Assembly: GCA_022749815.1 (NCBI GenBank)
Contig: JAKIWV010000002.1
Coordinates: 194,478 to 258,477 of the forward strand
Source of the DNA: Thermoplasmata archaeon
GTDB taxonomy: Archaea; Thermoplasmatota; Thermoplasmata; Lutacidiplasmatales; UBA184
Reading direction: 5' to 3'
DNA: 64,000 nucleotides
Under the pieces are notes generated by a model. The model saw only the letters and a list, made by a program, of their open reading frames with translations, did no database searches and was not told the origin of the DNA. Of the stretch, positions 2,826-16,365 are shown piece by piece. How positions within the stretch are numbered: position 1 is the first letter of the stretch; each line of letters begins with the position of its first letter. Position numbers and translations under genes: made by a program.

Positions 2826-3641
2826 GTGACCCCATCGGCGGCGGCTCCCGATCGCTCGTCCGGTCTCTCGCTCCTGCGTCGCAGCGGGACCGTGACCGAG
2901 TTGCTCTTCCTGCACGAATGTGCCACGCGAGAGGTGGCTCAGCTCCGGCCCGTCGCCCAACGCCTCGGCCTCACCGTCCAAGCCGCCTCCCACATCTTCC
3001 GGCAGCTCCGGCGACGGGGATTGGCCGAGGTGCGGAACGACCTGTACCGGCCGACGGTATCTGGAATCGCCTGGCTCCACGCCGCGTTCGGTTCGGTGCG
3101 TGAGGACTTGGACGAACGTCTCCAGCGATTGCGGGTCATTCGCTCGACCCGAGCAGTGGCCCGGGGCCGGGTACCGGCCGACGCCGGTGTCGTTCTGGAG
3201 CTGCGGAGCGGCATGCTCGAAGCGCGCGTAGGCTCGAGAGGCCCCTCCCGGGGGCGGGCGCGCCGGGCGGCGAGGGACGGCGAACTCGTGGAAGTGACCG
3301 ACCTCGAGGGAATCGTCCCGCTCCGTCCGGCCGAGATCCGTATCGTCACGCTGCCCGACTCGGGGGCCCTCGAGAAGTCGATCGTAGCTCAGCTCCGTCG
3401 CCTGCTCCGGGGAGGTTCCGAGGGACTGTTGGCCGCGTCCGGAATCGAAGCCTTCCATTGGCTCCAGCGGGCGTCCTCGCGGCCGGTCCTACGCTATGCC
3501 GTCGCAGCGTCGGCCATCGAGGCCTCCAACGTCGGTGTGCCGACCACCCTCGTAGTGCTCGAGAGCGACCTGCCCTGGCTGCTCGCCCAGTTCGACCAGC
3601 CGCAACCCGTGCCCCTCACAGTACGTCGTCTACGAGGCTAG
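2826..3641 (+). CDS. Putative winged-HTH transcriptional regulator with an uncharacterised C-terminal domain
   Basis: N-terminal HTH-like segment (LRPVAQRLGLTVQAASHIFRQLRRRGLAEV). It lies next to, and divergent from, the ABC import operon. The start codon is uncertain. Confidence 0.4.
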   Translation: MTPSAAAPDRSSGLSLLRRSGTVTELLFLHECATREVAQLRPVAQRLGLTVQAASHIFRQLRRRGLAEVRNDLYRPTVSGIAWLHAAFGSVREDLDERLQRLRVIRSTRAVARGRVPADAGVVLELRSGMLEARVGSRGPSRGRARRAARDGELVEVTDLEGIVPLRPAEIRIVTLPDSGALEKSIVAQLRRLLRGGSEGLLAASGIEAFHWLQRASSRPVLRYAVAASAIEASNVGVPTTLVVLESDLPWLLAQFDQPQPVPLTVRRLRG

Positions 3642-4957
3642 GGCGGGTGCGGCCCCGTGGGGCTCGGCGCCGTCGGTTCCGGCCGACGTCGGGGAAGGTT
3701 CCAGCTCACGGAGAAGGTCGTCAGGGCTCTCCAGCGAGCGAGCGCCGGCCGCCACGAGCCGGTCCCGCACAGCCGCCGCCGTGCCGCCGGTGAAGTCGCG
3801 GTGGGGCCAGCTCGCCATCCCCAGGAGGAAGATGGGCGTGCGTCCAGCGAAGGGCACGAGGTCCTCCAGGTTAGCGAGGTTCCCAGGGCCTACCGGGAAT
3901 GGCGCAACCACGATCCGGTCGGCCTCCACGAGCAGCCGGCGATGCTGCGTCCGGCTTTCGTCGCTCAGGGGGGCAAAGGGAACCTCGGTGGCGACGGGGA
4001 TCCCGAATTCTTCCGCGGTCGTGTGGTCGGTATCGAAGAGGGCCACGACGCCGCTGGTCACGAAGAACCCCCGCTCCCATAGGCGGCGTAGAATGGGGGA
4101 CGCGGATCCCCCACCCCCCACCACGTGCACGCGAAGTGGGGGCGTCCGAAACGGCACTCTCGGTGCCTCCGGCGGCAGGCGGGGAATCAGGTAGGGGACC
4201 CCGCTGCGGGGATCCTCGCGGAGGTCGGCCACGATGCCCCATACCTCCTGCAGCAATACCGGAGAGAGCACGGCCGCCGCCGGTCCATCGGCCACCAGGC
4301 GGCCGTGGTGCAGGACCGCGACGCGGTCTGCAAAACGCGCCGCGAGGTTGAGGTCGTGCAGGGCGGTGACCGCGGCGCTCCCCTCTCGGTGGCAGAGCCG
4401 GCGCACCCGCTCGAGGACCTCGAGCTGGTGCGCCATGTCCAGATGCGCCGTGGGCTCGTCGAGGAGAAGGGCGGGCGTCGATTGGGCGAAGACTCGAGCG
4501 AGACGCAGGCGCTGGCGCTCGCCTCCGCTGATCTCCCAGGTCCGGTCGCCGGCCCGGTCTCCTAGGCCGACCTCGTCCAGGGCCTTCCGGGCCGCGAGGC
4601 GATCGCCCGCCGATTCCCCTCCGAACCGGGGAACGTGGGGGTGACGGCCGAACAGAACGTACTCGAAGAGCGTGACGTTGTCTCCCGGCAACTCCTCCTG
4701 GGGCATCCACGCGAGGTGCCGGGCCCGCGCCGACAGGGACAGCCGTCCTGCTGGAACGCCGGCGAGGAAGATCTGACCTTTGTCGGGCGATACGAGACCA
4801 AGAACCGTCCGGATCAACGTCGTCTTCCCCGAGCCGTTCGGCCCCGCGATCGCCAGGAGCTCTCCCGAGCGCACCGACAGTGAAACGTCCCGAAGGGCGA
4901 CGGTCGTCCCCAGGCGGACGGTCAGGTGCTCCACAGAGATCGCCGCGGGGATCAGGG
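3630..4957 (-). CDS. ABC transporter ATP-binding protein (FepC/BtuD-like, iron-siderophore/cobalamin type) with an unusual ~180-aa C-terminal extension
   Basis: Walker A (GPNGSGKTTL), ABC signature (ISGGERQRLRLA) and Walker B (LLLDEPTAHLD) are present, with a likely GTG start at 4957. The long listed ORF 3630..5837 is a frame artefact on its N-terminal side. Confidence 0.75.
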
Positions 4958-4963
4958 TCGTGG

Positions 4964-6085
4964 TCACGTGCGGGGTCCCTCCGAGGGGGTTCGGCGTCGA
5001 TACAGGAGATACAGAAAGAACGGCGCGCCGGCGAACGCCGTCGGGATCCCCACGGGCAGGACGATCGCCGGCACGACGACCTGGGCCAGGTCCCAGGCCG
5101 AGGCGAGGAACGCGCCGCCGAAGAGGGCGGATAGGGGAAGGACGGCCCGGTAATCGGGCCCCACCAAGCGTCGGACGATGTGCGGCGAGACCAGTCCCAC
5201 GAACCCGATCACCCCGGTAAACGCAACGGCGGTGGCGGTGAGGAGCGTCGTTGTTAGGATCAACTGTCGGGCCACTCGTCGTCCGTCGACCCCCAGACTG
5301 CTCGCCACATCGGGGCCGAGTTGGAGAACGTTGAGCTCGCGGCCTCGAAGCGCCGCGACGCCGCCGGCGATGAGCACGCCACCGAACACGATGCCCGCCC
5401 GGCCCCAGGTCGCACCGGCCATCCCCCCGAGGAGCCAGAAACTTACCTGGAACTCCCCGAGCGGATTCACGAGCAGGAATGCCGCCAACATCGCAGAGAA
5501 GAACGCGCTCAGGGCGACGCCCGTAAGGACCAACGTCTCGACCGCGCGGGCGCGGCCGGCCGCCCAGTACACGATGATCCCAGGGATCAATCCCCCCAGG
5601 AACGCGAAGAGGGGGAGCACAAGGTAAGCGGACGCGAGTCCGATCCGGAAGACGAAGATCAGCGACGCCCCCATCGCAGCCCCGGTGGACAGTCCGAGGA
5701 GGTAGGGGTCCGCGAGCGGGTTCCGGAACACGCCCTGCAACGAGCCGCCGGACAGCCCGAGGGCGGCCCCGGCGGCGAGAGCCAGGACGATCGCGGGCAT
5801 CCTCGCTTGCCAGACGATTTCGGTCCAGATCGCGCATTGGCGGGCCGAGACCGCAACGGAGCTACAAGCCGAACCCGCGAGGGCGCCACCCGTGAGACCG
5901 TGCACGCCGATCGACAGGACGACCCCGGGCGGGATCGGCACCGGTCCGATCAACGGGGAGAGGAGCAGCAACCCCAGGAGGACGCCCGCCAGGAGAAGCG
6001 ATGAAATCCAACGAAGTCGCCGGCGCGGCTGTGTGTTGGCCCCGGGGAGCTTCTCCGTCGTGCCGGGGGTGGGATTCCCCGGCAT
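4964..6085 (-). CDS. FecCD-family ABC permease (BtuC/FepD-like)
   Basis: Polytopic membrane protein with FecCD-type motifs (SGGSLQGVFRNPLADPYLLGLSTGAAMGA). It sits directly upstream of the ATPase. Confidence 0.8.
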   Translation of the reverse strand: MPGNPTPGTTEKLPGANTQPRRRLRWISSLLLAGVLLGLLLLSPLIGPVPIPPGVVLSIGVHGLTGGALAGSACSSVAVSARQCAIWTEIVWQARMPAIVLALAAGAALGLSGGSLQGVFRNPLADPYLLGLSTGAAMGASLIFVFRIGLASAYLVLPLFAFLGGLIPGIIVYWAAGRARAVETLVLTGVALSAFFSAMLAAFLLVNPLGEFQVSFWLLGGMAGATWGRAGIVFGGVLIAGGVAALRGRELNVLQLGPDVASSLGVDGRRVARQLILTTTLLTATAVAFTGVIGFVGLVSPHIVRRLVGPDYRAVLPLSALFGGAFLASAWDLAQVVVPAIVLPVGIPTAFAGAPFFLYLLYRRRTPSEGPRT

Positions 6086-6109
6086 TCGTCGGTCCCAAGA
6101 ACGGGGTGC

Positions 6110-7195
6110 CTACGGCGGGGGCACCAGGGTAGGGTGAACCAAGTGCAGCAGGATGGGAATGGCGAGGATCAGGGAGGGGTCGGCCTCCGTCATCAGGGTG
6201 ATGTCCACGGCGTCCTTGGCCCCGGTCAGCTGGCTCCAATAGGGGGCCCCCCCCGTCGTCGATTGCCATTGCGCCGGCGTCTGATTCGCCACGATCCAAG
6301 GGTCGTTCCAGCTCGTGCCGTAGAGCACGACGTCGGGACTCGCGTTGAGGACCGCCGTCGCGTTCATTTCGAAGTAGACTAGCGGGGACGAGGAGGCGAT
6401 GTTGACCGCCCCCAGCACGTCGATGAGCGACTGGCCGAACGAATCCGGTCCGAAGGTGTAGTACCCTCCGCCGTCGTAATAGTAGGTGACGAGGACGGTG
6501 GGCAGAATCCCCCCGTTGCTCGACAGGTTCGAATCAAATTTCTCCGCCGCGATCAACTGGAGGTTCAGTTGGGTCACGAGCGCATTCGTCGTGGCGCCCA
6601 CGGAGGGGAACAGCTGCCCGACCAATCGCACGTCGTTCACGATGCCTTCCAGGCTGTTCGGTGAGAGAAGGACCACGGGGATGTGGTACGTTACGGAGAG
6701 CTCTTCCACCGCCGCCGCCGAGGTGATGGTGGAGGCTAGAATCAGCTGGGGGCTCCGGTACAGGAGCTCCTCCACGGCGATCGAAGGAAAGTCGGCGATA
6801 CAGAGAGCGGCGGACACGTTCCACAACGCCGACTGATTGGGGGTGTACTCGTTCAGCAGGCCCCCTGAAATGAGTGGGTCGCATCCCACCCCGACGACCC
6901 GGTCGCGGAGGCCCAACCGGTAGACGATGTCGAGAACGCTCGGGGCGAGCACGACGATCCGAGAGGCGTTGGCCTTCGCCACGACCGAGCGGCCCAGATC
7001 GTCGACGACCGTGACGTTGGGTCCGGGGCCGGTCGGGGAGACGGCCTTGGACTCGATCGCCGGCTTGAGCTCGAAATAAACCGCGGTCGCGGCGACCGCA
7101 GTACCGGAGGCGATGAGAAGAGCGACGACCAAGAGCGTGACGGAGATGCGTCGCCCGGCGAGGGAAACCGGTCCAGGGGAGGGATTCAACGACAT
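6110..7195 (-). CDS. ABC substrate-binding protein (BtuF/FepB-like, class III) with an N-terminal membrane anchor; rich in N-x-S/T sequons
   Basis: N-terminal TM segment (ISVTLLVVALLIASGTAVAA). Binding-protein core (RIVVLAPSVLDIVYRLGL..VVGVGCD). It is the first gene of a three-gene import operon. Confidence 0.7.
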   Translation of the reverse strand: MSLNPSPGPVSLAGRRISVTLLVVALLIASGTAVAATAVYFELKPAIESKAVSPTGPGPNVTVVDDLGRSVVAKANASRIVVLAPSVLDIVYRLGLRDRVVGVGCDPLISGGLLNEYTPNQSALWNVSAALCIADFPSIAVEELLYRSPQLILASTITSAAAVEELSVTYHIPVVLLSPNSLEGIVNDVRLVGQLFPSVGATTNALVTQLNLQLIAAEKFDSNLSSNGGILPTVLVTYYYDGGGYYTFGPDSFGQSLIDVLGAVNIASSSPLVYFEMNATAVLNASPDVVLYGTSWNDPWIVANQTPAQWQSTTGGAPYWSQLTGAKDAVDITLMTEADPSLILAIPILLHLVHPTLVPPP

Positions 7196-7360: not shown

Positions 7361-7522
7361 GGGAGCATAGGCTAATCTGGCAGACCAGCGGGCTCCAGTC
7401 AGGTCTCCTGCGAGGGGGATCTTTGCATTGGGTCAGCGGAGGGACGCTTCGGCGTACCGATGACGAGTGACTGGAGCGCGCGGAGAGACCCGCATATCGG
7501 GGTTCAAATCCCCGTGCTCCCA
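7361..7522 (+). tRNA. tRNA-Trp (anticodon CCA) with an 89-nt intron (7399..7487) between positions 37 and 38; CCA not encoded
   Basis: The acceptor stem is a perfect 7-bp helix, GGGAGCA/TGCTCCC, with discriminator A. The D-loop (AATCTGGCA) has A14, G18, G19 and A21. The anticodon stem is GCGGG/CCCGC, perfect once the intron is removed. The anticodon loop reads CT-CCA-G followed by A38 from exon 2. The T-arm is CGGGG-TTCAAAT-CCCCG. An AT-rich box, AAAGAATATCT, lies about 25-30 nt upstream. Confidence 0.8.
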
Positions 7523-7823: not shown

Positions 7824-8261
7824 TCAACTTGTTTCGCTGACGCATGCATAGACCTTCGCACGCATCCGCATCGTCTGTGGGTCGAAAGTGCCCTCGAGGA
7901 TGCAGACGCTGTTGTTGAGCCACTTGTACCGCTCGTCTTCGGTTTCAAACAGTACCGAGAGAAGCTGCCGGCCCCCCGCCTCGGTAAACACGGTACGGCC
8001 TTGCAGCGAGACCAGAACGAGCGCGTCGTCGTGCGTCTTGATCAAGCCGTGCGCGTCGGGCAGCATCGCGCCATCGCTCCGCCGGCGAGGATGATTTGTC
8101 AGGCGAAGGGAGCCACGAAGCTTGTCACCCGTAACCGTTCCGTCCAGCTCGCCGTACCCTGCCCCGCCTTCATTTCCATAGGGCCTCACTAGGACAAACT
8201 TCTCGCCAAAGGAGGAGTCGCGATACGCCGCGTCAAGCTCACAGATCGGCTCCAGACGCAT
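7824..8261 (-). CDS. DUF3237-family protein (~145 aa)
   Basis: The pattern M.LEP...L.A.Y....G...G..Y.L.G.V.G..LRG......DW....DG...LD is typical of DUF3237. The likely start is MRLEPICELD. Confidence 0.5.
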   Translation of the reverse strand: MRLEPICELDAAYRDSSFGEKFVLVRPYGNEGGAGYGELDGTVTGDKLRGSLRLTNHPRRRSDGAMLPDAHGLIKTHDDALVLVSLQGRTVFTEAGGRQLLSVLFETEDERYKWLNNSVCILEGTFDPQTMRMRAKVYACVSETS

Positions 8262-8493
8262 AGTAGCACCGCCTGCCGGCGGAAAACCAGGCGTGAGTAA
8301 AGAACCTTCCGCACTATCCAAGTTGTCGGCCGTCGTACCCGAGTTCGCCGTCCCGCATAGGCTACTATGTCGGAGATCTACAAGGAGTTCGAAACGGGCC
8401 CCTAAGCGTTTTAAGAGAGCGACTGGCTTTTGCTGAACTTTTCCAAAGGAGGGGATTCTCTAGGGCCCCCCTGGCGTGCTTCAGCTACACCGC

Positions 8494-8523
8494 GAGGGTG
8501 CAATCGCCATTGCACCCTCGAAC
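8494..8523. repeat. Palindromic repeat family, copy P1: GAGGGTGCAAT-CGCC-ATTGCACCCTC + GAAC
   Basis: Perfect 11-nt inverted arms around a 4-nt spacer. It is intergenic, lying between the STAND gene 3' end and the DUF3237 gene. Confidence 0.7.
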
Positions 8524-8962
8524 CCGGTTACCTCACTGGGGCCGGAGAGCGGATCCATTTGCAACGGCTCACCCACCACAGCGGTCAGACATCGCAGGTT
8601 CCGAGGGCAGCCGCTCTTGGGGCGATCGGAGGAGGGGGAGGCATGTCGAAGCGGGCCCTCTGACTCGAGCCACGGTCAGGGTTCCTCCTTTCACCCATCC
8701 TCCCCCGTGGCCATCTCCACCCTCTCGCAGGACGCCATCTGTCTCCCTTGGATAGTTGTCGAGGGAGGAGTTGCGCCGCCTCTAGGGCGCCGCAGCGACG
8801 TAGGGGCCGACTTCGGAGGCTGCCTCCGAGGCCCGCCTCCCCATGGCTCCCTCCGGATCCGGCCCAGCGGGCCTGGCTCGGCGAGGGGCATAGCCGAGAA
8901 GGGGGGCGCCGAGCCCTCTCGGACGAGTGGGAGCAAGGGGCCCTCGCCACCGGGCGTATGAG

Positions 8963-11767
8963 TCAGCCCGAGATTTTGGACAGGAGCGCTCGCGTTTGGT
9001 CCAGGTCCGGGACGGCCGACATTTCCTCGAAGAGCTCCAATGCGTGCGACAGGGCGGCCCGCCCGCCCGGGCCGTCCCCGCCCTCGGCGAGGGCCCGGCC
9101 GACCTCGACCCAGGTGCGCGCCGTCTCGTACGTCCAACCGAGCCGGGACCACGTTCCGATGCATCGGTGCAGGAGGGGCACCGCCACGCTCGCTCGTCCC
9201 TCACGGACGAGGCACTCCGCTTTAGCGCGGTCGGAAAACGCGCGTATGTAGTCGGAATCAAAACGGTCGGCGAATTCCTGGAGAGGGCCCAGCAATGCCT
9301 GGGCCTGTTCGAGGTGTCCCTGTCGCACGGCCACCGACACGAAGAGCGCGAGGGCTTCGGGGTACAGCTCGGCGTACCAGCCCTCCGGGCCAGTCGCTAG
9401 GCAACAATCCCGCGCCGCACCGAACGCCTGCTCGGCGGCGGCGAACTCGTCCCGGAGGAGGAAGTGTCGACCCAGGTAGAGGTGGATCAGCGCCTCGAGG
9501 TACCACCTCGGTTCGGTCCGCATGAGGGCGAGGGCGGTCTCCAGCGACGGGCGGGCGCTCTCAGTCTGACCCAGCAGAGCCCCGGCCGCTCCATGACCGA
9601 ACAGCGCCTGGACCGGTTCCGGGACGCCGTGCACCGCCGCGAACCGGCGCAGTTCGTCGGCGCGCAGCACGACCTCGGTAAAGTGGCCCTGGCGCAAGAG
9701 ACCCAGCGGCTCGGCATACCCCCGCCACCAAGCTTCTATGTCGGCGGTACCGGTTCGTCGCGCGAGCTCGATCAGCTCGCCGGAGGCGTCCAAGGCGCGA
9801 GGGAGGTCCCCCTCCACGTGGTAGATCGCCGCCGCCTGGTAGGTCAGGGCCTCGATAACTAGGTCGGTGAGCCCGTGGTCCTCGGCGATCGCCTTCGCCT
9901 CCCGGACGAGTCGGAACGAGTCCCGGATCCGGCCTACAGGGAGCGACCGAGCCGAGATGAGCCGGGTGAGGACCTGACCGTGACGGTCCCCTTGGGCTTC
10001 CGCCAGCCGCAACGCCCGCTCCGCGTCTTCGCGGGCTGGTCCGACCCGACCCAGGACGTAGAGGAAGTTCGACCGCGCCACGAGCACCTGACCGAGGAGC
10101 GAGTCCTCCGGGCTTTCCCCCAGAAGCGCGGTCGCGCGCCGGAAGAGCGGCTCGGCGCGGTCCGGCGTGATATCGGCGTTGGTGCCCATCGCCGCGATGC
10201 ATCCGACGGCCGCGGCGAGGTCCCCGAGGCGTTGGAAGCCGTCGGCGGCTTCTTCGAAGAGGTCGAGACCCTTGCCCGCGTCCCCGACCCGGATCATCTG
10301 TTCTGCGAGGCGCGACTGGATGCGCCAGCGTTGCGAGCCCGCCGGTTCCCGGGAAAGCAGGTCGAGTGCCGCCCGGTAATGCTCGATTGCGTCGCGCCGC
10401 GCATAGATCTGGGCCGCGCGGTCCCCCGCCTTCATGCAGTACTCGAGGGCCCGAGCCGTGTCCCCGGATCGCAGGAAATGGTAGGCGAGGATCCCCGAGC
10501 GGTCGGACGAATCGCCCGGCGGACTCGATTCGAGGGCGAGGCCGATCCGGTGGTGGATCTCGCGCCGTCGCGCCAGAGGAACTTCGGCGTACAATGCTTC
10601 CTGGATCAGCGGGTGGGCGAACGTTCCGACGTCGTCTCCGGCCGGGCCCCGCACCACCTGGACGAGTCGCGCGCCTGCCGCGGCTTCGATCGCATCGAGG
10701 ACATCTTTCTCGCCACGGCCGCTAATCTGCGGGAGCAGCCGGACGTGGAACTCCGGCCCCTCCGCTGCGGCCGCAGCCAGCACCGTCCTGTGGTCCGTGC
10801 CGAGGCGTCCCAGACGTTGTTCGAGCACACTCTGGACGCTCGAGGGGACGCGGAGGGTTGGGACCGATCGTCCTTCCCAGCCATCCGCCGTGGGAAAGAT
10901 TGCCCCCGACTCGATCAGCGATTGGACGATCTCCTCGACGAAGAACGGGTTTCCGCCGGACTTCTCGTTGACGAGGCGGACGAACTCGGGGAGAGGGACG
11001 GCCTGGCGGAGCAGCTGGCCCACCAGGGCCGCCACCTCCGACCGGTCTAGTCGCGCGAGGTCGACCCGTGTGATGAGCTTGCTCCGCCCCAGCGTGAGCA
11101 CGAGCTCCTTCAGGGGCGGGCTCTGGTCAAGGTGGGTGTCCCGTGCAGATACCGCGATGAAGAGGGGGTTCGTCCGGGTCGCCGGTGCGATCGCCTGTAG
11201 GAGCTCTACCGACGATGCATCGGCCAGCGCAAGGTCGTCGATCGTGATCAACGCGCTCCCGGACCCGGCGATGGCGATGAACAGGTCGCACAGCTCACGC
11301 ACGAAGGAGTGGCCGTCCAATGGGTGCGCGCGCCAGTCCGGACTCGGGGTAAGCCAGACTTTGTCCGTAAGCTCCGGCAATAGCGCGAACACCGCATCCG
11401 CACAGGGGACCACCGTGGAACGCACCCTCCCCCGGGGTTGCTCTCTGACGAACTGCCGGAGGAGGTCGATCCACGGGGCATACGGCACGCCCCGCTCGAT
11501 TCCCTCGCACTGGGCCGACAGTTGGAGCATCCCTACGGTCGTGGCGACCCGGTGGAACTCGTCGATCAATCGAGTCTTGCCGATGCCGGACTCCCCGGTG
11601 AGGAGGAGCAACCGGCCCGATTCTTTGGTCGGACCGTCGACGAACGACTGCAGGGCCCCGAGCTCCGCCTTCCGGCCCACGAATGCGACCGTGGCGGCCC
11701 CAAGGCCCCCGGGCAGGCGTGGGTACAGAAGGCCCGGGTCTCGAGGGGCGACATCCGGGTCGCTCAC
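8963..11767 (-). CDS. STAND-class P-loop NTPase with C-terminal TPR-like helical repeats (934 aa); no effector or HTH domain recognised
   Basis: Walker A at ~aa 55 (LLLTGESGIGKTRL), Walker B-like (LITIDDLALAD), and a long alpha-helical repeat region beyond it. This is the AfsR/MalT/Avs-like NTPase class. Confidence 0.7.
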   Translation of the reverse strand: MSDPDVAPRDPGLLYPRLPGGLGAATVAFVGRKAELGALQSFVDGPTKESGRLLLLTGESGIGKTRLIDEFHRVATTVGMLQLSAQCEGIERGVPYAPWIDLLRQFVREQPRGRVRSTVVPCADAVFALLPELTDKVWLTPSPDWRAHPLDGHSFVRELCDLFIAIAGSGSALITIDDLALADASSVELLQAIAPATRTNPLFIAVSARDTHLDQSPPLKELVLTLGRSKLITRVDLARLDRSEVAALVGQLLRQAVPLPEFVRLVNEKSGGNPFFVEEIVQSLIESGAIFPTADGWEGRSVPTLRVPSSVQSVLEQRLGRLGTDHRTVLAAAAAEGPEFHVRLLPQISGRGEKDVLDAIEAAAGARLVQVVRGPAGDDVGTFAHPLIQEALYAEVPLARRREIHHRIGLALESSPPGDSSDRSGILAYHFLRSGDTARALEYCMKAGDRAAQIYARRDAIEHYRAALDLLSREPAGSQRWRIQSRLAEQMIRVGDAGKGLDLFEEAADGFQRLGDLAAAVGCIAAMGTNADITPDRAEPLFRRATALLGESPEDSLLGQVLVARSNFLYVLGRVGPAREDAERALRLAEAQGDRHGQVLTRLISARSLPVGRIRDSFRLVREAKAIAEDHGLTDLVIEALTYQAAAIYHVEGDLPRALDASGELIELARRTGTADIEAWWRGYAEPLGLLRQGHFTEVVLRADELRRFAAVHGVPEPVQALFGHGAAGALLGQTESARPSLETALALMRTEPRWYLEALIHLYLGRHFLLRDEFAAAEQAFGAARDCCLATGPEGWYAELYPEALALFVSVAVRQGHLEQAQALLGPLQEFADRFDSDYIRAFSDRAKAECLVREGRASVAVPLLHRCIGTWSRLGWTYETARTWVEVGRALAEGGDGPGGRAALSHALELFEEMSAVPDLDQTRALLSKISG

Positions 11768-11843
11768 GTGAGCCGTCCGGGACGAGCACCGAGCGGGACG
11801 ACGGATGCCGCGCGCCCCAACCGGTCGCGCGGCGGAGCTACCC

Positions 11844-12470
11844 TCATTCGATCTCCTTCCGCGAGCCGTCGCTCGCTACGAACGCCCGCCAGCCGTCCGT
11901 GGAGTCGAGCTCGAGCTCGCCCTCGAACCGTCCGCTCCTCGTTCCGCGGTCGGTGGCGAACTCGACCAGGAGCTTGAACGGCCGCGTCGAGTGGTCGCTG
12001 GCCTCGAGGAGCCACTTCATCAGCTCTTCGTGGCGCGACCAATCGACCTCGACGAAGTGGCCCGGGAGCAGAGAGGGCTCGTAGGCCACCTCCTTCCCCG
12101 CCAAACGGGCCCGTAGCTCCTGGACCGGCTCGGGGGAGCAGTTCCTGAGGAATACGCGGTGGGAGGCCCGCAGTCGCGTCGGACGCGCCACATAGGCGGG
12201 CTCGAGTTCGTGGCGCTGCCGCTCCCCCACGGGCCAGACGTGCCGATAGAGCGAGGTCGGGCGGACCTTTGGGGGCGACCGGTACCCCTTCCGCCAGCGT
12301 TGGACTTGCCGCAGTCGGGCAGCAAAATTGGGAGTTTCGTTCTTCCAGTTGCCGTAGATAACCGGGGCGAGCGCCTCTAGCTCCCGCTCGACCTGGCGGG
12401 CCGACCACTCGGAATGCGCCCGCTCGACGTTTTGGGTGAGCTGCTCGAGCTCCTTCCGAGGTCGGGTCAT
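11844..12470 (-). CDS. Hypothetical protein (208 aa) immediately upstream of, and co-oriented with, the STAND NTPase
   Basis: The reading frame has balanced composition (MTRPRKELEQL...). The overlapping listed ORF 11764..12603 is Arg/Gly-rich and likely a frame artefact. No family was recognised. Confidence 0.4.
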   Translation of the reverse strand: MTRPRKELEQLTQNVERAHSEWSARQVERELEALAPVIYGNWKNETPNFAARLRQVQRWRKGYRSPPKVRPTSLYRHVWPVGERQRHELEPAYVARPTRLRASHRVFLRNCSPEPVQELRARLAGKEVAYEPSLLPGHFVEVDWSRHEELMKWLLEASDHSTRPFKLLVEFATDRGTRSGRFEGELELDSTDGWRAFVASDGSRKEIE

Positions 12471-12718
12471 GCCGCGGCCCGCGACATCTGTCGGACCCCC
12501 GTGAAGGGGCGAACGGCGCCTGGGTCGATAAAGATGCGCGAATCCCCGACAACCGGGGCGGCACTTCAGCGTACAGAATCCCCACGGGTGAGGATGGCGG
12601 CACCGCGATTCAGCCCCGGGGCATCGGGAACCGTCCGGAGGGGGCCGGCCAGGCCCGAGGGGCCTCTCTCCAAGGGGTGCCACAGTGCCACTTTCTCCCC
12701 TCCAGGACGAACCGGCTG

Positions 12719-12973
12719 ATGACCGCCTCCTTAGAAATTGCGTTCTCGGAAGCGGTCGAACGGTGGGAGACGCATCGCAAGGCATGCGCGCGGTGCGCGA
12801 CGAGCCAGCGGGGGGAGTGCGAGACGGGTGACCATTTGTTGGCCGCCGCGGCCGAAGCTCGAGGACGCTGGTTGCTCCGCCTCACACGGTCCGTGGGCGT
12901 AAGGATCGCGGTCCGTCCTCCTGCCCTTCCGACGAGCAAGCCCGAGTCCCGGCCAAGGAAGAGGACCAGGTAG
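12719..12973 (+). CDS. Small zf-HC2-like protein, paralog 1 (ERWETHRKACARC)
   Basis: Shares the motif E-W-[DE]-x-H-x3-C-x2-C-x7-C-x2-G with two downstream paralogs. The start and the C-terminal boundary are uncertain. Confidence 0.35.
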   Translation: MTASLEIAFSEAVERWETHRKACARCATSQRGECETGDHLLAAAAEARGRWLLRLTRSVGVRIAVRPPALPTSKPESRPRKRTR

Positions 12974-13261
12974 CAGTGGGCCGGGCGCGTTCTGCATGGG
13001 AGGAGGGGGAACGGGACCGTTCGCCCCGAACCGATCTCTGGGGGGATCGCTTCGTACGGTGAGTCGCGTTTCGCTCAGCCATCATTCCACCCGCTCTCGG
13101 CCGCCCCCGTGCACACGGAGTACGAGGTTCGTCGTTGTCAGATCCACAACTGCGCCGCGACAAGTGTCGAGGGTCCGTGGGGCGGCACCTCGCGAGGCCG
13201 GCCGAGGAAGCCGACGGGGGAGCGCGACACGCGAGCCGAAACCTCGGACATATGGAGAAGC

Positions 13262-13594
13262 ATGAAGTTCCCAAGCGGCACAGACGAGCATAGCTCCCAG
13301 CCCTGCCCAAACGACTTGCCGAAGTACCGTCGATGCGAGAACCGACTACACGGGACCCTGGCCGAATGGGACCGTCACATCGCATTGTGCGGTGAATGTC
13401 TGTCCTACGGCGTACACCTTTGCGCTATGGGCCAGAGCTTATCCCTTGAGGTCGGACGTGCACGAGCACGCTTGGACATGGTCGCAGCCAAGCTCACGCG
13501 GACTCGGCCCCGCCCGGAGTCGGTGGTCCCCGAACTCCCGATTCGAAGCCCACCCTCTCCTTCCCTGTCCGCGGTGGTTTCGGGGACTCCGTGA
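13262..13594 (+). CDS. Small zf-HC2-like protein, paralog 2 (AEWDRHIALCGECLSYGVHLCAMG)
   Basis: It has the H-x3-C-x2-C zinc-binding motif with an upstream Cys. It is paralogous to 15958..16365 and 12719..12973. Confidence 0.45.
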   Translation: MKFPSGTDEHSSQPCPNDLPKYRRCENRLHGTLAEWDRHIALCGECLSYGVHLCAMGQSLSLEVGRARARLDMVAAKLTRTRPRPESVVPELPIRSPPSPSLSAVVSGTP

Positions 13595-13818
13595 CGCCGA
13601 AATGGTTTCACGGGGGGTCGGAGGCGGCACCCTATCTTCGTGGTGGTGGTAACGTCGGTCCTCCTGCCGGCCTCCGCAGCCGCCGGCACACCTCCCACGT
13701 TGGGGAGGGAGTCCAGAGTCTTCACTCACGTTCGCCTTACGATGAAACCGAACCTGGCCCCGAGCGTGACCCTCGGAGGTGCAAACGACTTCTTCCCTTG
13801 AAAGAACAGTCCGTGCCC

Positions 13819-15588
13819 ATGGAAACGGGGCGAGCGGCCCGGCTCCCATGCTGGAATCCCCCCTCAATCCCGGGACGTTCGTCACGGCCTATTAACCTCC
13901 CGAGGTCGCCGTCCGGAAAACGACCCGGACGGTCGCGGACTTGGCCCCAACAGCGCAGCCAGATCGCTTCCATTGCGGTCGTGACTCTCGCTCTCATCGT
14001 AAGTTTCGGCATGTTGCCTTGGGCCCGGGCGCCCGCCCCACTCTCCTCCACTAGTGGAACACCTGGAATCCACACTCTAGATTTGAGCATCCCCATGGTC
14101 AACACGTCGTTTGCTGGCTATGTGCTGCTCAACCCCAACCATGGCTCGGTGCAGGCGATTTCCGATACGTTCACGCAACCGAGAGGGACTTGCAGCTCGG
14201 GCGAGTATGTTGTGAACTCAAACGCGTCCTATCCAAATGACCAGAATGTGTGGATCGGGCCGGGCCTTTACGACGGCACTCTCGACTTTTCAAATTTCGG
14301 GGCCTATCAAATGGGAACCGAAACGCTCTGCCAGTCGCTTACTCAGGACCCCGTCTACATTCCGTTCTACTACTCGATAGCGATCCGGCCGTCGGACCCG
14401 CCGAACCCCGACAACGTCATGCACGCCTTCACGGGGCTCGTGGTGAGTGCCGGCGACTCGATCAAGTCCACGATACTTTCGTCGTCCGGAACTCTGACAT
14501 TCACGTTTACGGACCTGACAAGCAATCGGACCGTAACGGCTGAGGTCAGTGCATCGGAGTTCAAGCCAAACGGAGCGTTCTGCATCCTGAACGTCTTTGG
14601 AAATCTGGCAAGATTCTCCAGGTTCACCCAGTCCTGCGAGCCCAACGTCGGTGGCGAGACGGCCGGTATTGGTGCCTTTACGACTCCGAACATCGCCCTT
14701 CGGGCAGTCATGGTCAACACCACTGGTGCGATCCAAGCCGCCGTGTCCCCACTATCTCCCGACGGAGCGACATTTTCGACCCGCTTTGTTTTCTCATCCC
14801 CCCTCGGCCCACTGTTCCCGCCCGGTCAAGATACGTTGTTTCGCGCTTCCCACGCCGCCGGTTATCTTCTCCTGAACAGCTACCACGGATCCGTGGTCTC
14901 GGCCTCCGACTCGTACGTTCAGCCTAAGGCCTCGTGCTTCGCAGGAGAGGCGTACGAAAACGCCACCGGGCACTATCCGGGCGACCAGGACGCTTTCGTG
15001 GGGGCAGGGCTGTACGCGGGCAGCACCGACTCCTCCAGCTACAGATTCTATCAGGTCGGCACTGAAGCGTTGTGTCAGCTCTTCTTCCAGAATCCGGTCT
15101 ACATCCCGTACTACCTCGTGACGGTCGTGACTCCGACCGACCCCACCGGGGACTTCTCCATCGTCGTCTTACCGAATTTGACTGTGAACCCCGGCGACGT
15201 CATTCATTCTGCGGTGAAAGTATCGGGAGCAACTTCAGGTGACGACCCGCAGAATAACAGGGTGACGTTCATCCTGGCCGACCTGACGACAGGCATGACC
15301 GCCCGAGTGACCATTTCCGCCGCTGGGTTCGCCCCGAACGGCGCGGCCTGTGTCATGGAACCTATCTTCCTCACCCCGAAGTTTACGCCAATCGCACAGT
15401 CCTGTAAGGCAACTGTCGACGGGGTGAACGATGGGTTTGGAGACTTCGCCCCTCCGAACCTTCTACTCCGGTTCGACCTCCGCAGCAACCTCAACTCGAC
15501 GGTGGTGCAGGCGCGCACTTCCGGTTTTATCGCCGACGGCGGGGACTTTTCCATCACCTGGATCACTTCGGAGCCGCTTGGGTTCTAG
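13819..15588 (+). CDS. Secreted or membrane-anchored protein with two tandem ~240-aa domains resembling the peptidase G1 (eqolisin/A4) concanavalin-like fold
   Basis: N-terminal TM/signal segment (IASIAVVTLALIVSFGML). There is an internal duplication: GYVLLNPNHGSV...YQMGTE...CILNV versus GYLLLNSYHGSV...YQVGTE...CVMEP. The QxGTE and I-V-E-like positions resemble the G1 catalytic Gln/Glu dyad. Many N-glycosylation sequons are present. Confidence 0.45.
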   Translation: METGRAARLPCWNPPSIPGRSSRPINLPRSPSGKRPGRSRTWPQQRSQIASIAVVTLALIVSFGMLPWARAPAPLSSTSGTPGIHTLDLSIPMVNTSFAGYVLLNPNHGSVQAISDTFTQPRGTCSSGEYVVNSNASYPNDQNVWIGPGLYDGTLDFSNFGAYQMGTETLCQSLTQDPVYIPFYYSIAIRPSDPPNPDNVMHAFTGLVVSAGDSIKSTILSSSGTLTFTFTDLTSNRTVTAEVSASEFKPNGAFCILNVFGNLARFSRFTQSCEPNVGGETAGIGAFTTPNIALRAVMVNTTGAIQAAVSPLSPDGATFSTRFVFSSPLGPLFPPGQDTLFRASHAAGYLLLNSYHGSVVSASDSYVQPKASCFAGEAYENATGHYPGDQDAFVGAGLYAGSTDSSSYRFYQVGTEALCQLFFQNPVYIPYYLVTVVTPTDPTGDFSIVVLPNLTVNPGDVIHSAVKVSGATSGDDPQNNRVTFILADLTTGMTARVTISAAGFAPNGAACVMEPIFLTPKFTPIAQSCKATVDGVNDGFGDFAPPNLLLRFDLRSNLNSTVVQARTSGFIADGGDFSITWITSEPLGF

Positions 15589-15674
15589 ATTCTATCCCTT
15601 TCACGCCCCTGGCCGCCTAAATTCTCAGGCACTGCCCGGGCCCCACGCGGGACCCAATCCCTCTGCATCAGGCA

Positions 15675-15715
15675 GGGGTGGCTGCAGCCACTATTGCACC
15701 CTCGAACGCCGCAAC
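15675..15715. repeat. Palindromic repeat family, copy P2 (GGGGTG-GCTGCAGCC-ACTATTGCACCCTCGAACGCCGCAAC)
   Basis: It shares the right half, ATTGCACCCTCGAAC, with P1, and carries an inserted GCTGCAGC palindrome. It is intergenic. Confidence 0.55.
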
Positions 15716-15957
15716 CAGCCTGGAACCGGGAAGAGCATCCAATCGCAACGAGATGGGTGGCCTGAGGGCAGAGTCGATTCCCTAGCGGACCGGCGGCTGG
15801 ACGGTCCACTCGAGGTCCGCAGAGGGGGTCCGAAGGCCCGGCGCGACATCTGTCGCGTCATTCACAGACGTGTACTTTCGCCTTCCTCGATGGAGCGCTC
15901 TCCAGGCGCGACAGTCCGACCGAAACATCGGCACATAGACTAACCGAGGGAACCGCG

Positions 15958-16365
15958 ATGACGACACAACTATCGACCGCCCTCTCGGCCATCCAAGAGC
16001 ACAACGCCCGCGACCAGTCTGGAAGCTTCAAACCGGGACGAGCCAACGTGGCGCAAGCCCGTTTTGAACGCGTCCTTTGCGAGTGGGACTCCCACATAGC
16101 CCGGTGCACAGAGTGTCTGTCTTACGGCGAACACCTGTGCATGTTGGGTGGTTTTCTTGTTGAAGATGTCGGGAGCGCGCGAGATCGTCTGGTCGGTCTG
16201 GCGGTAGAGCTCCCCCCCCCGAGCGCGGATGTATCGCAGCTTACCGGAGCACGAGCTCTTGGGGCGATCGGATACATGCTCTATGGGCCCCGAGTCTATG
16301 CCGAGAACCGAACTACCCGTGCGCCCTTATCGGATTGCGACGCTTCGAAGCCCAGTCCCAGTTGA
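15958..16365 (+). CDS. Small zf-HC2-like protein, paralog 3 (CEWDSHIARCTECLSYGEHLCMLGG)
   Basis: It has the H-x3-C-x2-C motif and is clearly paralogous to 13262..13594. Confidence 0.45.
   Translation: MTTQLSTALSAIQEHNARDQSGSFKPGRANVAQARFERVLCEWDSHIARCTECLSYGEHLCMLGGFLVEDVGSARDRLVGLAVELPPPSADVSQLTGARALGAIGYMLYGPRVYAENRTTRAPLSDCDASKPSPS

What the first reader, a model, noticed from the sequence alone, without database searches (positions are those of the whole stretch)
8963..12470. Orphan STAND NTPase-TPR with an upstream 208-aa partner inside the island: candidate two-gene defence or signalling module
The 934-aa protein starts almost directly with the P-loop (aa ~55) and continues into TPR-like repeats. 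It has none of the N-terminal effector, HTH or cyclase domains typical of Avs, MalT/AfsR or cyclase-STAND proteins. The co-oriented gene 77 nt upstream (11844..12470) encodes a 208-aa protein of no recognisable family and could supply the missing effector or sensor. Its location right after the tRNA integration site, inside repeat-bounded DNA, fits the pattern of defence islands. A two-gene STAND system with a separately encoded effector is not a standard described architecture.
Basis: inference. Interest (0 to 1): 0.6.

Follow-up and report, generated by a model that had tools for sequence, protein, structure and literature searches.

The report
Archaeal DNA-binding protein paired with STAND ATPase
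The two genes are a real, conserved pair in one group of soil archaea, but they look like a split gene-regulation switch (a small probable DNA-binding protein plus an ATP-driven sensor), not an antiviral defence system on a mobile island.

Summary
Both ORFs are real. The 934-aa protein (8963-11767, minus) is an intact STAND NTPase (AAA_16 plus TPR) with no fused effector. The 208-aa protein (11844-12470, minus) belongs to a small family with no Pfam match, found only in Thermoplasmata (Lutacidiplasmatales-type MAGs).

The pairing is conserved, but only in one clade. All 15 clade-A loci carry an orthologous STAND in or next to the operon. About 19 clade-B paralogue loci have none.

No defence signal was found: no PADLOC hit, no nuclease, protease or pore fold, no viral relatives, no integrase and no att repeat at the nearby intron-containing tRNA.

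The 208-aa protein models as a basic four-helix N-domain plus an acidic Ig-like sandwich. A palindrome, CGACA-N2-TGTCG, sits 18-28 nt upstream of its start codon in 28 of 35 sequences. The window's only three exact copies lie at this gene and at two neighbouring genes.

The STAND's wider relatives carry fused kinase, cyclase, SARP, LuxR or XRE domains.

Best reading: a split MalT/AfsR/PH0952-like regulator. The small protein would be an autoregulated DNA-binding subunit and the STAND its ATP-dependent sensor. DNA binding and the protein-protein contact are inferred.

A divergent Zn-motif gene family, translationally coupled to secreted-protein genes, belongs to the same cassette.

The parts
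8963..11767 (-). Effector-less STAND NTPase-TPR gene (934 aa, GTG start). Walker A is at aa 58-65 and Walker B DD at 177-178. The GNP (GxP) motif is at 272-274 and the conserved HPL at 385-387 in the 11 neighbourhood orthologues (only H385 varies when more distant homologues are added). TPR sensor spans about aa 430-930.
   Evidence: ORF. Pfam AAA_16, TPR_MalT and TPR_12. Invariant motifs in orthologue alignments. Orthologues.
11768..11843 (-). 76-nt spacer between the 208-aa gene and the STAND gene. It has no oligo-T tract, which is compatible with co-transcription.
   Evidence: Sequence read. Spacers in orthologous loci range from a 4-bp overlap to about 190 nt.
11844..12470 (-). 208-aa gene: putative DNA-binding autoregulator. 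Basic 4-helix N-domain at aa 3-61 with invariant R52 R54 Q57 R58 W59 R60. Basic linker. Acidic Ig-like beta-sandwich at aa 78-206.
   Evidence: Homologues and alignment. AF2 models with pLDDT 87. pI by segment.
12482..12493 (.). Palindromic box CGACAGATGTCG (read on the minus strand), centred 18 nt upstream of the ATG of the 208-aa gene. This is the putative operator.
   Evidence: The same position (18-28 nt upstream) is seen in 28 of 35 sequences.
12527..12532 (-). TATA-like TTTATC about 59 nt upstream of the ATG, with an extra TGTCG half-site at 12547-12551 upstream of it.
   Evidence: Sequence. TTTATC also recurs in clade-A upstream regions. The promoter assignment is inference.
12719..12973 (+). 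CH80a: divergently transcribed small gene with the H-x3-C-x2-C-x7-C motif. The mechanical ORF starts at 12677; the likely Met start is 12719.
13158..13169 (.). Second exact box (CGACAAGTGTCG), about 95 nt upstream of CH80b.
13262..13594 (+). CH80b: second H-x3-C-x2-C-x7-C small gene (110 aa from Met 13262). Its stop overlaps the start of the next gene.
   Evidence: (P0178 is 110 aa at 71% identity).
13591..15588 (+). Peptidase_A4-like membrane-anchored or secreted protein (665-aa ORF), translationally coupled to CH80b. It is a conserved neighbour in the window's subclade.
   Evidence: Pfam. Hydrophobic (signal/anchor) segment and 4-nt overlap. Orthologues in L007, L008 and L010.
15844..15855 (.). 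Third exact box (CGACATCTGTCG), about 103 nt upstream of CH80c.
15958..16365 (+). CH80c: third H-x3-C-x2-C-x7-C small gene (135 aa).
8496..8630 (+). Degenerate remnant similar to the flanks of CH80c (72% identity), missing the central 458 nt. This is the likely source of the 'repeat-bounded' impression.
Evidence: Both copies translate to an ALGAIG motif.

Best explanation
The pair is a split STAND-type transcriptional regulator specific to Lutacidiplasmatales-type Thermoplasmata.

Proposed mechanism:
- The 208-aa protein is the DNA-binding subunit. Its basic four-helix N-domain, probably as a dimer, recognises the palindrome CGACA-N2-TGTCG. That box lies between the TATA-like element and the start codon of its own gene, so the protein autoregulates the 208-aa/STAND operon.
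- The same box also precedes the neighbouring CH80 and secreted-protein operons, here the Peptidase_A4-like gene.
- The co-transcribed STAND NTPase-TPR supplies what MalT, AfsR and PH0952 have on one polypeptide. Its TPR sensor would bind a still-unknown cytoplasmic signal. ADP/ATP exchange would drive oligomerisation. The oligomer would then engage the clade-specific acidic Ig-like C-domain of the 208-aa protein and change its occupancy or cooperativity on arrays of half-sites.

Shown: the gene pair is conserved, the ATPase motifs are intact, the box exists and is positionally conserved, the fold classes are as described, and defence hallmarks are absent.

Inferred: that the 208-aa protein is the box binder, that the STAND contacts it, and the direction of regulation.
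For: 1. Conserved module in both directions.
- Clade A of the 208-aa family is always STAND-linked: 12 loci found with the small protein and 3 found with the STAND.
- Flanking genes differ between most of the loci with gene calls.
- Two loci have 4-bp overlaps (L003, L035).
- Pairwise distances of the two proteins correlate: r = 0.85, or 0.51 without the near-identical trio.

2. Operator.
- The box (up to 1 mismatch) is centred 18-28 nt upstream of the start codon in 28 of 35 sequences, across both clades.
- Clade-B intergenic regions keep invariant TGTCGC and GCGACA half-sites while surrounding DNA diverges.
- The 64-kb window has only 3 exact boxes, against about 0.07 expected from base composition. 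All three lie within 3.4 kb, at this gene and at CH80b and CH80c.
- Where the STAND operon is detached (L008) or STAND comes first (L014, L037), a box still heads it.

3. Protein features.
- Confident AF2 model with pLDDT 87.
- Residues 46-105 have pI 11.9, and the C-domain has pI 5.1.
- The invariant residues in the last helix of the N-domain are R52 R54 Q57 R58 W59 R60.
- The only fold hits for the N-domain are HTH domains (LrpC, Pax5), and they are non-significant.
- The residues that discriminate clade A from clade B (102, 104, 172, 192) all lie outside the N-terminal helical domain: two in the basic linker just before the first long strand and two in the sandwich. The N-domain is equally conserved in both clades.

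4. STAND family context.
- Walker A, Walker B, GNP (GxP) and the conserved PL motif with its preceding His (H385) are intact.
- Relatives carry kinase, cyclase, SARP, LuxR or XRE-HTH fusions.
- The profile hits the archaeal PH0952 and MalT TPR sensors.
Against: - No recognised DNA-binding profile matches the 208-aa protein. Foldseek matches are non-significant at E about 8-9.
- The box also co-occurs with CH80 genes, and CH80 (a Zn motif followed by a helix) could be the binder instead.
- All loci were collected through the 208-aa gene, so the box-gene association is partly ascertainment-biased.
- Several clade-A loci have the box displaced by 94-3654 nt, or only a 1-mismatch version.
- No fused 208-aa/STAND protein exists among 1.84 billion representatives, so there is no Rosetta-stone support.
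- No complex prediction could be run. Physical contact is supported only by operon linkage and modest co-phylogeny.
Confidence: 0.5

Rival explanations
1. The 208-aa protein is an autoregulated transcription factor that merely controls expression of the STAND along with CH80 and secreted-protein genes. The STAND then acts independently, for example as a scaffold or sensor with an output encoded elsewhere, with no direct TF-STAND contact.
For: - Box upstream of the operon.
- Clade-B paralogues work without any STAND.
- In L008 the STAND sits in a separate box-headed operon with a DUF3224 gene.
Against: - The STAND has no output domain of its own.
- Strict two-way co-occurrence in 15 of 15 loci, 4-bp overlaps, and a dedicated monophyletic TF clade whose discriminating residues all lie outside the N-terminal helical domain suggest more than simple target regulation.
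Confidence: 0.2
2. CH80, the small H-x3-C-x2-C-x7-C protein, is the factor that binds the CGACA-N2-TGTCG boxes. The 208-aa protein would then be a non-DNA-binding adaptor or regulator that links CH80 or the secreted-protein operon to the STAND.
For: - Boxes precede CH80b and CH80c in the window.
- CH80 is divergently paired with the 208-aa gene in most clade-B loci.
- CH80 has a likely Zn-binding motif with an invariant Arg downstream.
Against: - Boxes at the fixed position of about -20 occur in loci with no CH80 within 8 kb: L015, L021 and L025 have exact boxes, L016 and L029 have 1-mismatch boxes.
- The 208-aa N-half is far more basic and carries an invariant Arg-rich helix.
- CH80 has no DNA-binding family hit either.
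Confidence: 0.15
3. This is the first reader's reading: an antiviral (Avs-like) STAND defence system in which the 208-aa protein is the trans-encoded effector or co-sensor.
For: - STAND-TPR architecture resembles Avs sensors.
- Defence and non-defence STAND clades are interspersed (PMC13581612).
- Paralogues are multi-copy per genome and sit in variable contexts.
- L008 lies near an integrase and a PIN gene.
Against: - No PADLOC hit for either protein.
- No enzymatic or pore fold.
- No viral relatives.
- Neighbours are housekeeping or secreted-protein genes.
- No att repeat or integrase in the window.
- Closest STAND relatives are signalling fusions.
- A conserved operator architecture points to transcriptional control.
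Confidence: 0.08

Closest known systems
PH0952 of Pyrococcus horikoshii (PDB 6MFV), a predicted archaeal STAND transcription factor
   Same: - Archaeal NOD plus TPR-sensor STAND.
- The DNA-binding module lies N-terminal to the NOD, the same order as the 208-aa gene followed by the STAND gene.
- The TPR region is matched by the STAND profile at E = 1e-13 (PMC6468293).
   Different: - In PH0952 the ArsR-like DNA-binding domain is fused. Here the candidate DNA-binding protein is a separate 208-aa polypeptide of an unrelated, unclassified fold with an extra Ig-like domain.
- Only the TPR part matched by sequence.
MalT (E. coli) and LAL/AfsR/GutR-type STAND transcription activators
   Same: - ATP-dependent STAND core with a TPR/SUPR sensor.
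- Pfam TPR_MalT hit and a match to the MalT sensor 1HZ4.
- Relatives of this STAND carry SARP, LuxR or XRE DNA-binding fusions.
- Arrays of repeated half-sites in target promoters are reminiscent of MalT boxes.
   Different: - No DNA-binding domain on the STAND polypeptide.
- The organism is an archaeon with TBP/TFB promoters.
- The box lies between TATA and the start codon, which suggests repression or autoregulation rather than classic upstream activation.
Avs / bacterial NLR-like antiviral STANDs
   Same: P-loop STAND followed by a long helical-repeat C-terminal sensor.
   Different: - No N-terminal nuclease, protease, TIR or sirtuin effector.
- No PADLOC model hit.
- No defence-island context.
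- The partner protein has no effector-like fold.
EAD-coupled STAND/NTPase conflict systems (Kaur, Burroughs, Iyer, Aravind 2020, PMC7159879)
   Same: The core NTPase and its output are encoded by adjacent genes in one operon.
   Different: - EAD coupling needs the same small adaptor domain on both proteins.
- The 208-aa protein and the STAND share no detectable domain (BLASTP E = 0.96), and the STAND has only an N-terminal stub of about 28 aa.
Cyclase- and kinase-AAA_16-TPR signalling proteins (e.g. the paralogue at window 57102-60392; TOMM kinase/cyclase fusion TIGR03903)
   Same: - Same NOD-TPR core.
- 30% identity over about 890 aa to the in-window cyclase-STAND.
- Partial TIGR03903 match.
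   Different: Those proteins carry their output domain (a class III cyclase or Ser/Thr kinase) fused at the N-terminus. This one has none and instead has a dedicated upstream partner gene.

Membership tests
STAND NTPase superfamily (AAA_16 / MalT-like clade) | P-loop Walker A GxxGxGK[ST] and Walker B hhhhDD | tested here: met
   GESGIGKT at aa 58-65. G58 E59 G61 G63 K64 and D177 D178 D183 are invariant across orthologues. Pfam AAA_16 at E = 4.6e-20.
STAND NTPase superfamily (AAA_16 / MalT-like clade) | STAND-specific helical and winged-helix modules (GxP motif, conserved His of the WHD) | tested here: met
   G272 N273 P274 are invariant in both orthologue alignments. H385 P386 L387 are invariant in the 11 neighbourhood orthologues but not all of them in the wider 12-sequence alignment. 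Assigning these to the GxP and WHD-His motifs rests on position and established STAND knowledge. No structure was computed.
STAND NTPase superfamily (AAA_16 / MalT-like clade) | C-terminal repeat sensor domain | tested here: met
   TPR_MalT at 559-680 and TPR_12 at 729-787. The profile hits the PH0952 and MalT TPR sensors.
MalT/LAL/AfsR/PH0952-type STAND transcription factors | DNA-binding effector domain on the same polypeptide | tested here: not met
   No HTH, SARP, LuxR or ArsR domain in the 934-aa protein. Only about 28 aa precede AAA_16.
MalT/LAL/AfsR/PH0952-type STAND transcription factors | Inducer- and ATP-dependent multimerisation that activates DNA binding | not testable with these tools
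   Requires biochemistry.
MalT/LAL/AfsR/PH0952-type STAND transcription factors | Specific repeated DNA boxes in target promoters | tested here: inconclusive
   Conserved CGACA-N2-TGTCG boxes and half-site arrays head the operons, but the binding protein has not been identified experimentally.
Avs / antiviral STAND defence systems | Match to known defence-system protein models | tested here: not met
   PADLOC-DB gave 0 families for the STAND, the 208-aa protein and the downstream gene.
Avs / antiviral STAND defence systems | Cell-killing effector domain (nuclease, protease, TIR, pore), fused or in the partner | tested here: not met
   None in the STAND. The partner model is a 4-helix domain plus an Ig-like sandwich with no significant structural match.
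Avs / antiviral STAND defence systems | Enrichment next to other defence or mobile genes | tested here: not met
   Neighbours in the window and the loci with gene calls are transporters, metabolic, translation and secreted-protein genes. Only L008 has an integrase and a PIN gene nearby.
EAD-coupled NTPase conflict systems | The same effector-associated adaptor domain present in both the core NTPase and the adjacent protein | tested here: not met
   No similarity between the two proteins (best BLASTP E = 0.96). Definition taken from PMC7159879.
Helix-turn-helix DNA-binding proteins (for the 208-aa protein) | Match to an HTH sequence profile or significant structural match to an HTH domain | tested here: inconclusive
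   - No Pfam or NCBIfam hit.
- Foldseek on the N-domain returned only LrpC and the Pax5 paired domain, at E = 8-9 and TMq 0.43-0.51.
- Weak HMG-box hit to 2YUK at E = 0.026-0.07.
ZAS-type zinc-binding anti-sigma domain (for CH80) | H-x3-C-x2-C motif and a match to zf-HC2 | tested here: inconclusive
   The motif H-x3-C-x2-C plus a further invariant Cys is present. No Pfam hit at E up to 1, and archaea have no sigma factors.

The most novel reading that the evidence does not exclude
The whole cassette would be an archaeal analogue of a transmembrane sigma/anti-sigma-type signalling system built from unrelated parts.
- A lineage-specific transcription factor (the 208-aa protein).
- A Zn-binding H-x3-C-x2-C partner (CH80), translationally coupled to a membrane-anchored or secreted protein, that acts as its anti-factor.
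- In one clade, a recruited effector-less STAND ATPase that adds a cytoplasmic ATP-gated input by binding the factor's Ig-like domain.

That would be the first STAND regulator whose DNA-binding output is a separate subunit, and a new archaeal transcription-factor fold.
Probability: 0.12. Interest if true: 0.75.

Novelty: new variant of a known kind. Interest (0 to 1): 0.5.

Why it matters
STAND ATPases are studied mainly as single-chain switches, either immune receptors or regulators such as MalT and AfsR. A conserved pair in which the output is a separately encoded DNA-binding subunit would show that the switch can act in trans on a transcription factor.

It would also define two protein families with no current annotation, the 208-aa family and CH80, plus a ready-made operator sequence. 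That gives a directly testable regulon in uncultivated acid-soil Thermoplasmata.

There is also a practical caution. An effector-less STAND near a tRNA is not in itself evidence of a defence island.

Tried and rejected
- **tRNA detection.** ARAGORN found no tRNA and Rfam at gathering threshold found nothing. E-value mode recovered an intron-containing tRNA.
- **att or island test.** No second copy of the tRNA 3' end. The direct repeats are only 72% identical and look like gene remnants.
- **Defence models.** PADLOC gave nothing.
- **Structure searches on the full 208-aa model.** Searches against PDB and BFVD gave only generic Ig-like similarity, e.g. Kir cytoplasmic domain and GH2 Ig domains, all weaker than E = 1e-3.
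- **N-domain-only search.** Two non-significant HTH hits.
- **Profile against PDB.** A weak MLL3 HMG-box hit (E = 0.026 and 0.07). I do not rely on it, because the model lacks the long third HMG helix.
- **Search for a fused 208-aa/STAND protein.** None among 26 representatives; the longest is 343 aa.
- **Pfam on distant relatives and on CH80.** Nothing.
- **EAD-type shared adaptor.** Rejected.
- **Viral contigs.** No relatives.
- **phmmer of the STAND against PDB.** No hit. Only the orthologue profile reached the TPR sensors.
- **Box as an RNA hairpin.** Considered and rejected by reasoning only, not by a fold calculation. A 5-bp stem with a 2-nt loop is sterically implausible, and the half-sites recur in several orientations and upstream of other genes.

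Full report
**1. Observation**

The window comes from a Thermoplasmata MAG. The 208-aa protein and the 934-aa protein are each 100% identical to NCBI entries from a 655-kb contig. Related loci include Candidatus Lutacidiplasmatales genomes (order described in PMC9287336).

ORF 8963..11767 (minus, GTG, 934 aa) and ORF 11844..12470 (minus, ATG, 208 aa) both exist. They are co-oriented and separated by 76 nt with no T-tract.

The 934-aa protein has AAA_16 (aa 29-203), TPR_MalT (559-680) and TPR_12 (729-787), and nothing before the NTPase. It also partly matches the NOD-TPR portion of the TOMM kinase/cyclase fusion model.

In an alignment with 10 neighbourhood orthologues the following are invariant: Walker A (G58 E59 G61 G63 K64), the Walker B region (D177, D183), R209-D210, G272-N273-P274 and H385-P386-L387. 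In a second alignment with 11 database homologues most of these remain invariant, including D177, D178 and the GNP motif. It is therefore an intact STAND ATPase.

The 208-aa protein has no hit in Pfam, NCBIfam or PADLOC. It does have 32 homologue clusters, all Thermoplasmata or metagenomic. Nearly all are 208-210 aa and start at the same residue, so the longer 313-aa reading of the ORF is wrong.

**2. The island framing does not hold**

- A tRNA exists at 7361-7522, on the plus strand. It has an intron of about 93 nt and its anticodon reads CCA in the sequence. ARAGORN and Rfam at gathering threshold missed it; Rfam in E-value mode scored it at 42 bits.
- Its 3' end has no second copy in 64 kb.
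- No integrase or defence domain turned up among the ORFs I scanned. The neighbours I identified are a DUF3237 protein, a Peptidase_A4-like protein, DUF1801 and a prolyl oligopeptidase. The upstream ORFs (3630-7195) read like ABC-transporter components from their translations, but I did not scan them.
- The only flanking repeats are two contiguous segments of 72% identity at 8496-8630. They match 15680-15750 and 16209-16272 on either side of a small gene. I read this as a decayed, internally deleted copy of that gene, not an att pair.

**3. Is the pairing conserved?**

I looked up the neighbourhoods of 7 homologues. I then fetched 25 loci from GTDB species representatives with a profile of the family and located STAND orthologues in all of them by tblastn.

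The family splits cleanly into two clades on a midpoint-rooted NJ tree.
- **Clade A** (50% or more identity to the window protein): all 12 loci have an orthologous, full-length alignable, effector-less STAND of about 890-960 aa.
  - It is directly downstream on the same strand in 9 loci: the window, L003, L004, L005, L006, L007, L010, L012 and L013. L011 is the same contig as L006.
  - In L003 the two genes overlap by 4 bp.
  - In L014 the STAND is upstream on the same strand.
  - In L008 it is 2 kb away, on the opposite strand in its own operon.
  - In L015 it is present as fragments.
- **Clade B** (48% identity or less, about 19 loci): no STAND within 8 kb.

The reverse test agrees. Three further effector-less Thermoplasmata STAND orthologues taken from the STAND search (P0040, P0041, P0043) each have a 208-aa family gene in the operon.

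Flanking genes differ between most of the loci with gene calls. Several genomes carry two or three copies, including both clades. Pairwise distances of the two proteins correlate, with r = 0.85, or 0.51 without the near-identical trio.

So the two-gene module is real, but it belongs to one paralogous clade of a wider family.

**4. What the 208-aa protein looks like**

- AlphaFold2 with the 32-sequence alignment gives pLDDT 87. The model has four helices (aa 4-61), a low-confidence basic linker, and a beta-sandwich (aa 78-206). The N-domain alone also folds with pLDDT 87.
- Foldseek against PDB and BFVD finds only generic Ig-like similarity, weaker than E = 1e-3.
- For the N-domain alone, the only two hits are HTH domains (LrpC and the Pax5 paired domain), at non-significant E values of 8-9.
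- A profile search of PDB gives a weak HMG-box hit at E = 0.026-0.07, which I do not rely on.
- Residues 46-105 have pI 11.9 (15 K/R against 3 D/E), while the C-domain has pI 5.1.
- The invariant residues cluster in the last helix of the N-domain: R52 R54 Q57 R58 W59 R60.
- An exhaustive profile search of 1.84 billion representatives finds only 26 relatives. None is longer than 343 aa and none is fused to a STAND. There are no viral relatives.

There is no sign of a nuclease, protease or pore-forming fold.

**5. A conserved operator**

Reading the upstream regions of all loci revealed a palindrome, CGACA-N2-TGTCG.
- With up to one mismatch, it is centred 18-28 nt upstream of the start codon of the 208-aa gene in 28 of 35 sequences. 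This holds in both clades.
- In clade B, the roughly 280-bp divergent intergenic region keeps an invariant TGTCGC, a TGTCGC-N8-GCGACA-N2-(T/C)GTCGC array, and a further GCGACA across codons 2-4, while the surrounding DNA diverges.
- In the window there are only three exact boxes in 64 kb. My base-composition estimate of the expectation is about 0.07. The tool's shuffles were run for up to 1 mismatch and gave 3.2 expected against 5 found.
- The three boxes are at 12482-12493 (18 nt before the 208-aa ATG), 13158-13169 and 15844-15855. The latter two lie about 95 and 103 nt upstream of two small genes described below.
- A TATA-like TTTATC sits about 59 nt upstream of the ATG, so the box would lie just downstream of the transcription start (this is inference).
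- In clade-A loci where other genes precede the pair, or where the STAND is detached, a box heads the operon: L005, L012, L014, L035, L037, and L008 at 16411 upstream of DUF3224-STAND.

This is the signature of an autoregulated, dimeric DNA-binding factor. The 208-aa protein is the most economical candidate.

**6. A third partner noticed on the way**

A divergently transcribed gene of 75-110 aa, which I call CH80, has an invariant H-x3-C-x2-C-x7-C motif.
- It lies upstream of the 208-aa gene in most clade-B loci, and in the window, L007, L010 and L013. In L014 and L037 it lies upstream of the STAND instead.
- The window has three copies: 12719-12973, 13262-13594 and 15958-16365.
- It is also restricted to Thermoplasmata (28 clusters) and has no Pfam hit.
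- In 15 of the 24 CH80 genes examined, the stop codon overlaps (4 nt) or directly abuts the start of a gene with an N-terminal hydrophobic signal or anchor segment. A 16th (L023) overlaps by 19 nt, and in L014 and L037 such a gene follows after a gap of 22-76 nt. These downstream proteins are 134-155 aa in clade B, and Peptidase_A4-like or PKD proteins of 520-888 aa in clade A.
- The window's Peptidase_A4-like gene (13591-15588) is conserved next to the module in L007, L008 and L010.

**7. How it most likely works**

The STAND's wider relatives carry fused Ser/Thr kinase, class III cyclase, SARP, LuxR or XRE-HTH domains. The window itself has a cyclase-AAA_16-TPR paralogue at 57102-60392.

The orthologue profile hits the TPR sensors of archaeal PH0952 and of MalT. 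PH0952 is a predicted archaeal STAND transcription factor whose ArsR-like DNA-binding domain is N-terminal to the NOD (PMC6468293). That is the same order as the 208-aa gene followed by the STAND gene here.

The four residues that discriminate clade A from clade B (102, 104, 172, 192) all lie outside the N-terminal helical domain: two in the basic linker just before the first long strand and two in the sandwich. The N-domain is equally conserved in both clades. This fits a shared DNA specificity with a clade-specific protein interface.

I therefore favour a split MalT/AfsR/PH0952-like regulator, with confidence about 0.5. The 208-aa protein binds the box and autoregulates. The STAND senses a cytoplasmic signal through its TPR domain, exchanges ADP for ATP, oligomerises, and modulates the DNA-binding subunit through its Ig-like domain. 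Secreted or surface-protein operons would be the regulon.

- **Shown:** module conservation, motif integrity, the box and its positional conservation, the fold classes, and the absence of defence hallmarks.
- **Inferred:** the identity of the box binder, the STAND contact, and the sign of regulation.

**8. Rivals**

- **The TF only regulates the STAND, with no contact (0.2).** This is compatible with the box and with clade B. It leaves the STAND without an output and does not explain the dedicated clade.
- **CH80 is the box binder (0.15).** Boxes do precede CH80 genes. However, boxes at about -20 also occur where no CH80 is within 8 kb (L015, L016, L021, L025, L029). The caveat is that all loci were ascertained through the 208-aa gene.
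- **Avs-like defence (0.08).** There is no PADLOC hit, no effector fold, no viral relatives and no defence context. The literature does note that defence and non-defence STAND clades are interspersed (PMC13581612).
- **EAD-type trans-effector coupling (PMC7159879).** Rejected, because the two proteins share no domain.

**9. Novelty and verdict**

The STAND itself is an ordinary member of the MalT-like signalling clade. What is new is the architecture. The output is a separately encoded protein of an unclassified family, with a defined palindromic box, embedded in a lineage-specific cassette with a Zn-motif protein and secreted-protein genes.

I rate it a new variant of a known kind, with interest 0.5. 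The defence, effector and island interpretation is not supported, and the signalling alternative is.

Noticed in passing
window 12719-12973, 13262-13594, 15958-16365 (+); L001 9533-9778 and many other loci: An unannotated family of 75-110-aa proteins ('CH80') has an invariant H-x3-C-x2-C-x7-C motif, which resembles the ZAS signature. It is restricted to Thermoplasmata and has no Pfam hit. It is usually divergently paired with the 208-aa gene.
   Followed up: partly
window 13591-13594 overlap; L001, L007, L010, L017-L020, L022, L023, L026, L028, L030, L032-L034 (overlap or direct abutment); L014 and L037 (22-76 nt gap): CH80 genes are translationally coupled to a downstream gene encoding a protein with an N-terminal signal or anchor helix. 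The CH80 stop overlaps the next start by 4 nt or abuts it in most loci. The downstream proteins are 134-155 aa in clade-B loci, and Peptidase_A4-like or PKD proteins of 520-888 aa in clade-A loci.
   Followed up: partly
window 12482-12493, 13158-13169, 15844-15855; about 20 nt upstream of the 208-aa gene in L001-L034: The palindromic box CGACA-N2-TGTCG has strongly conserved position and sits with extra TGTCGC/GCGACA half-sites. It is a ready-made candidate operator for an archaeal regulon.
   Followed up: yes
window 7361-7522 (+): A tRNA with an intron of about 93 nt next to the anticodon, which reads CCA (Trp) in the sequence. ARAGORN and the Rfam gathering-threshold scan missed it; Rfam E-value mode scored it at 42 bits. 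I did not establish whether the intron carries a box C/D guide.
   Followed up: partly
window 57102-60392 (+): A second STAND paralogue with a fused N-terminal class III adenylate/guanylate cyclase domain (Guanylate_cyc plus AAA_16 plus TPR_12). It is 30% identical to the focal STAND over about 890 aa. A Peptidase_C39-like gene lies upstream at 56228-56857 (minus).
   Followed up: partly
window 8496-8630 versus 15680-15750 plus 16209-16272: Two contiguous segments of 72% identity match the flanks of CH80c, with the central 458 nt missing. This is probably a decayed CH80 cassette between the STAND and the DUF3237 gene.
   Followed up: partly
window 13591-15588 (+): The 665-aa ORF has a Peptidase_A4 (eqolisin-type acid peptidase) match in its first half, and the sequence appears internally duplicated. 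It has a hydrophobic anchor around aa 123-147 of the ORF, so the true start may lie further downstream.
   Followed up: no
L008 15754-16236 / 12556-15744 (minus); window 7824-8321 (minus): In L008 the detached STAND is co-transcribed behind a DUF3224 gene and preceded by a box. In the window, a DUF3237 gene lies downstream of the STAND. I did not examine whether these small beta-barrel DUFs are functionally linked.
   Followed up: no
L038-type genomes: JAKIWS (L012, L014, L026, L036), JAKIWG (L011, L021), DASRSV (L013, L018): Single genomes carry two to four copies of the 208-aa family, mixing STAND-linked and STAND-free clades. This indicates lineage-specific expansion of the cassette.
   Followed up: partly
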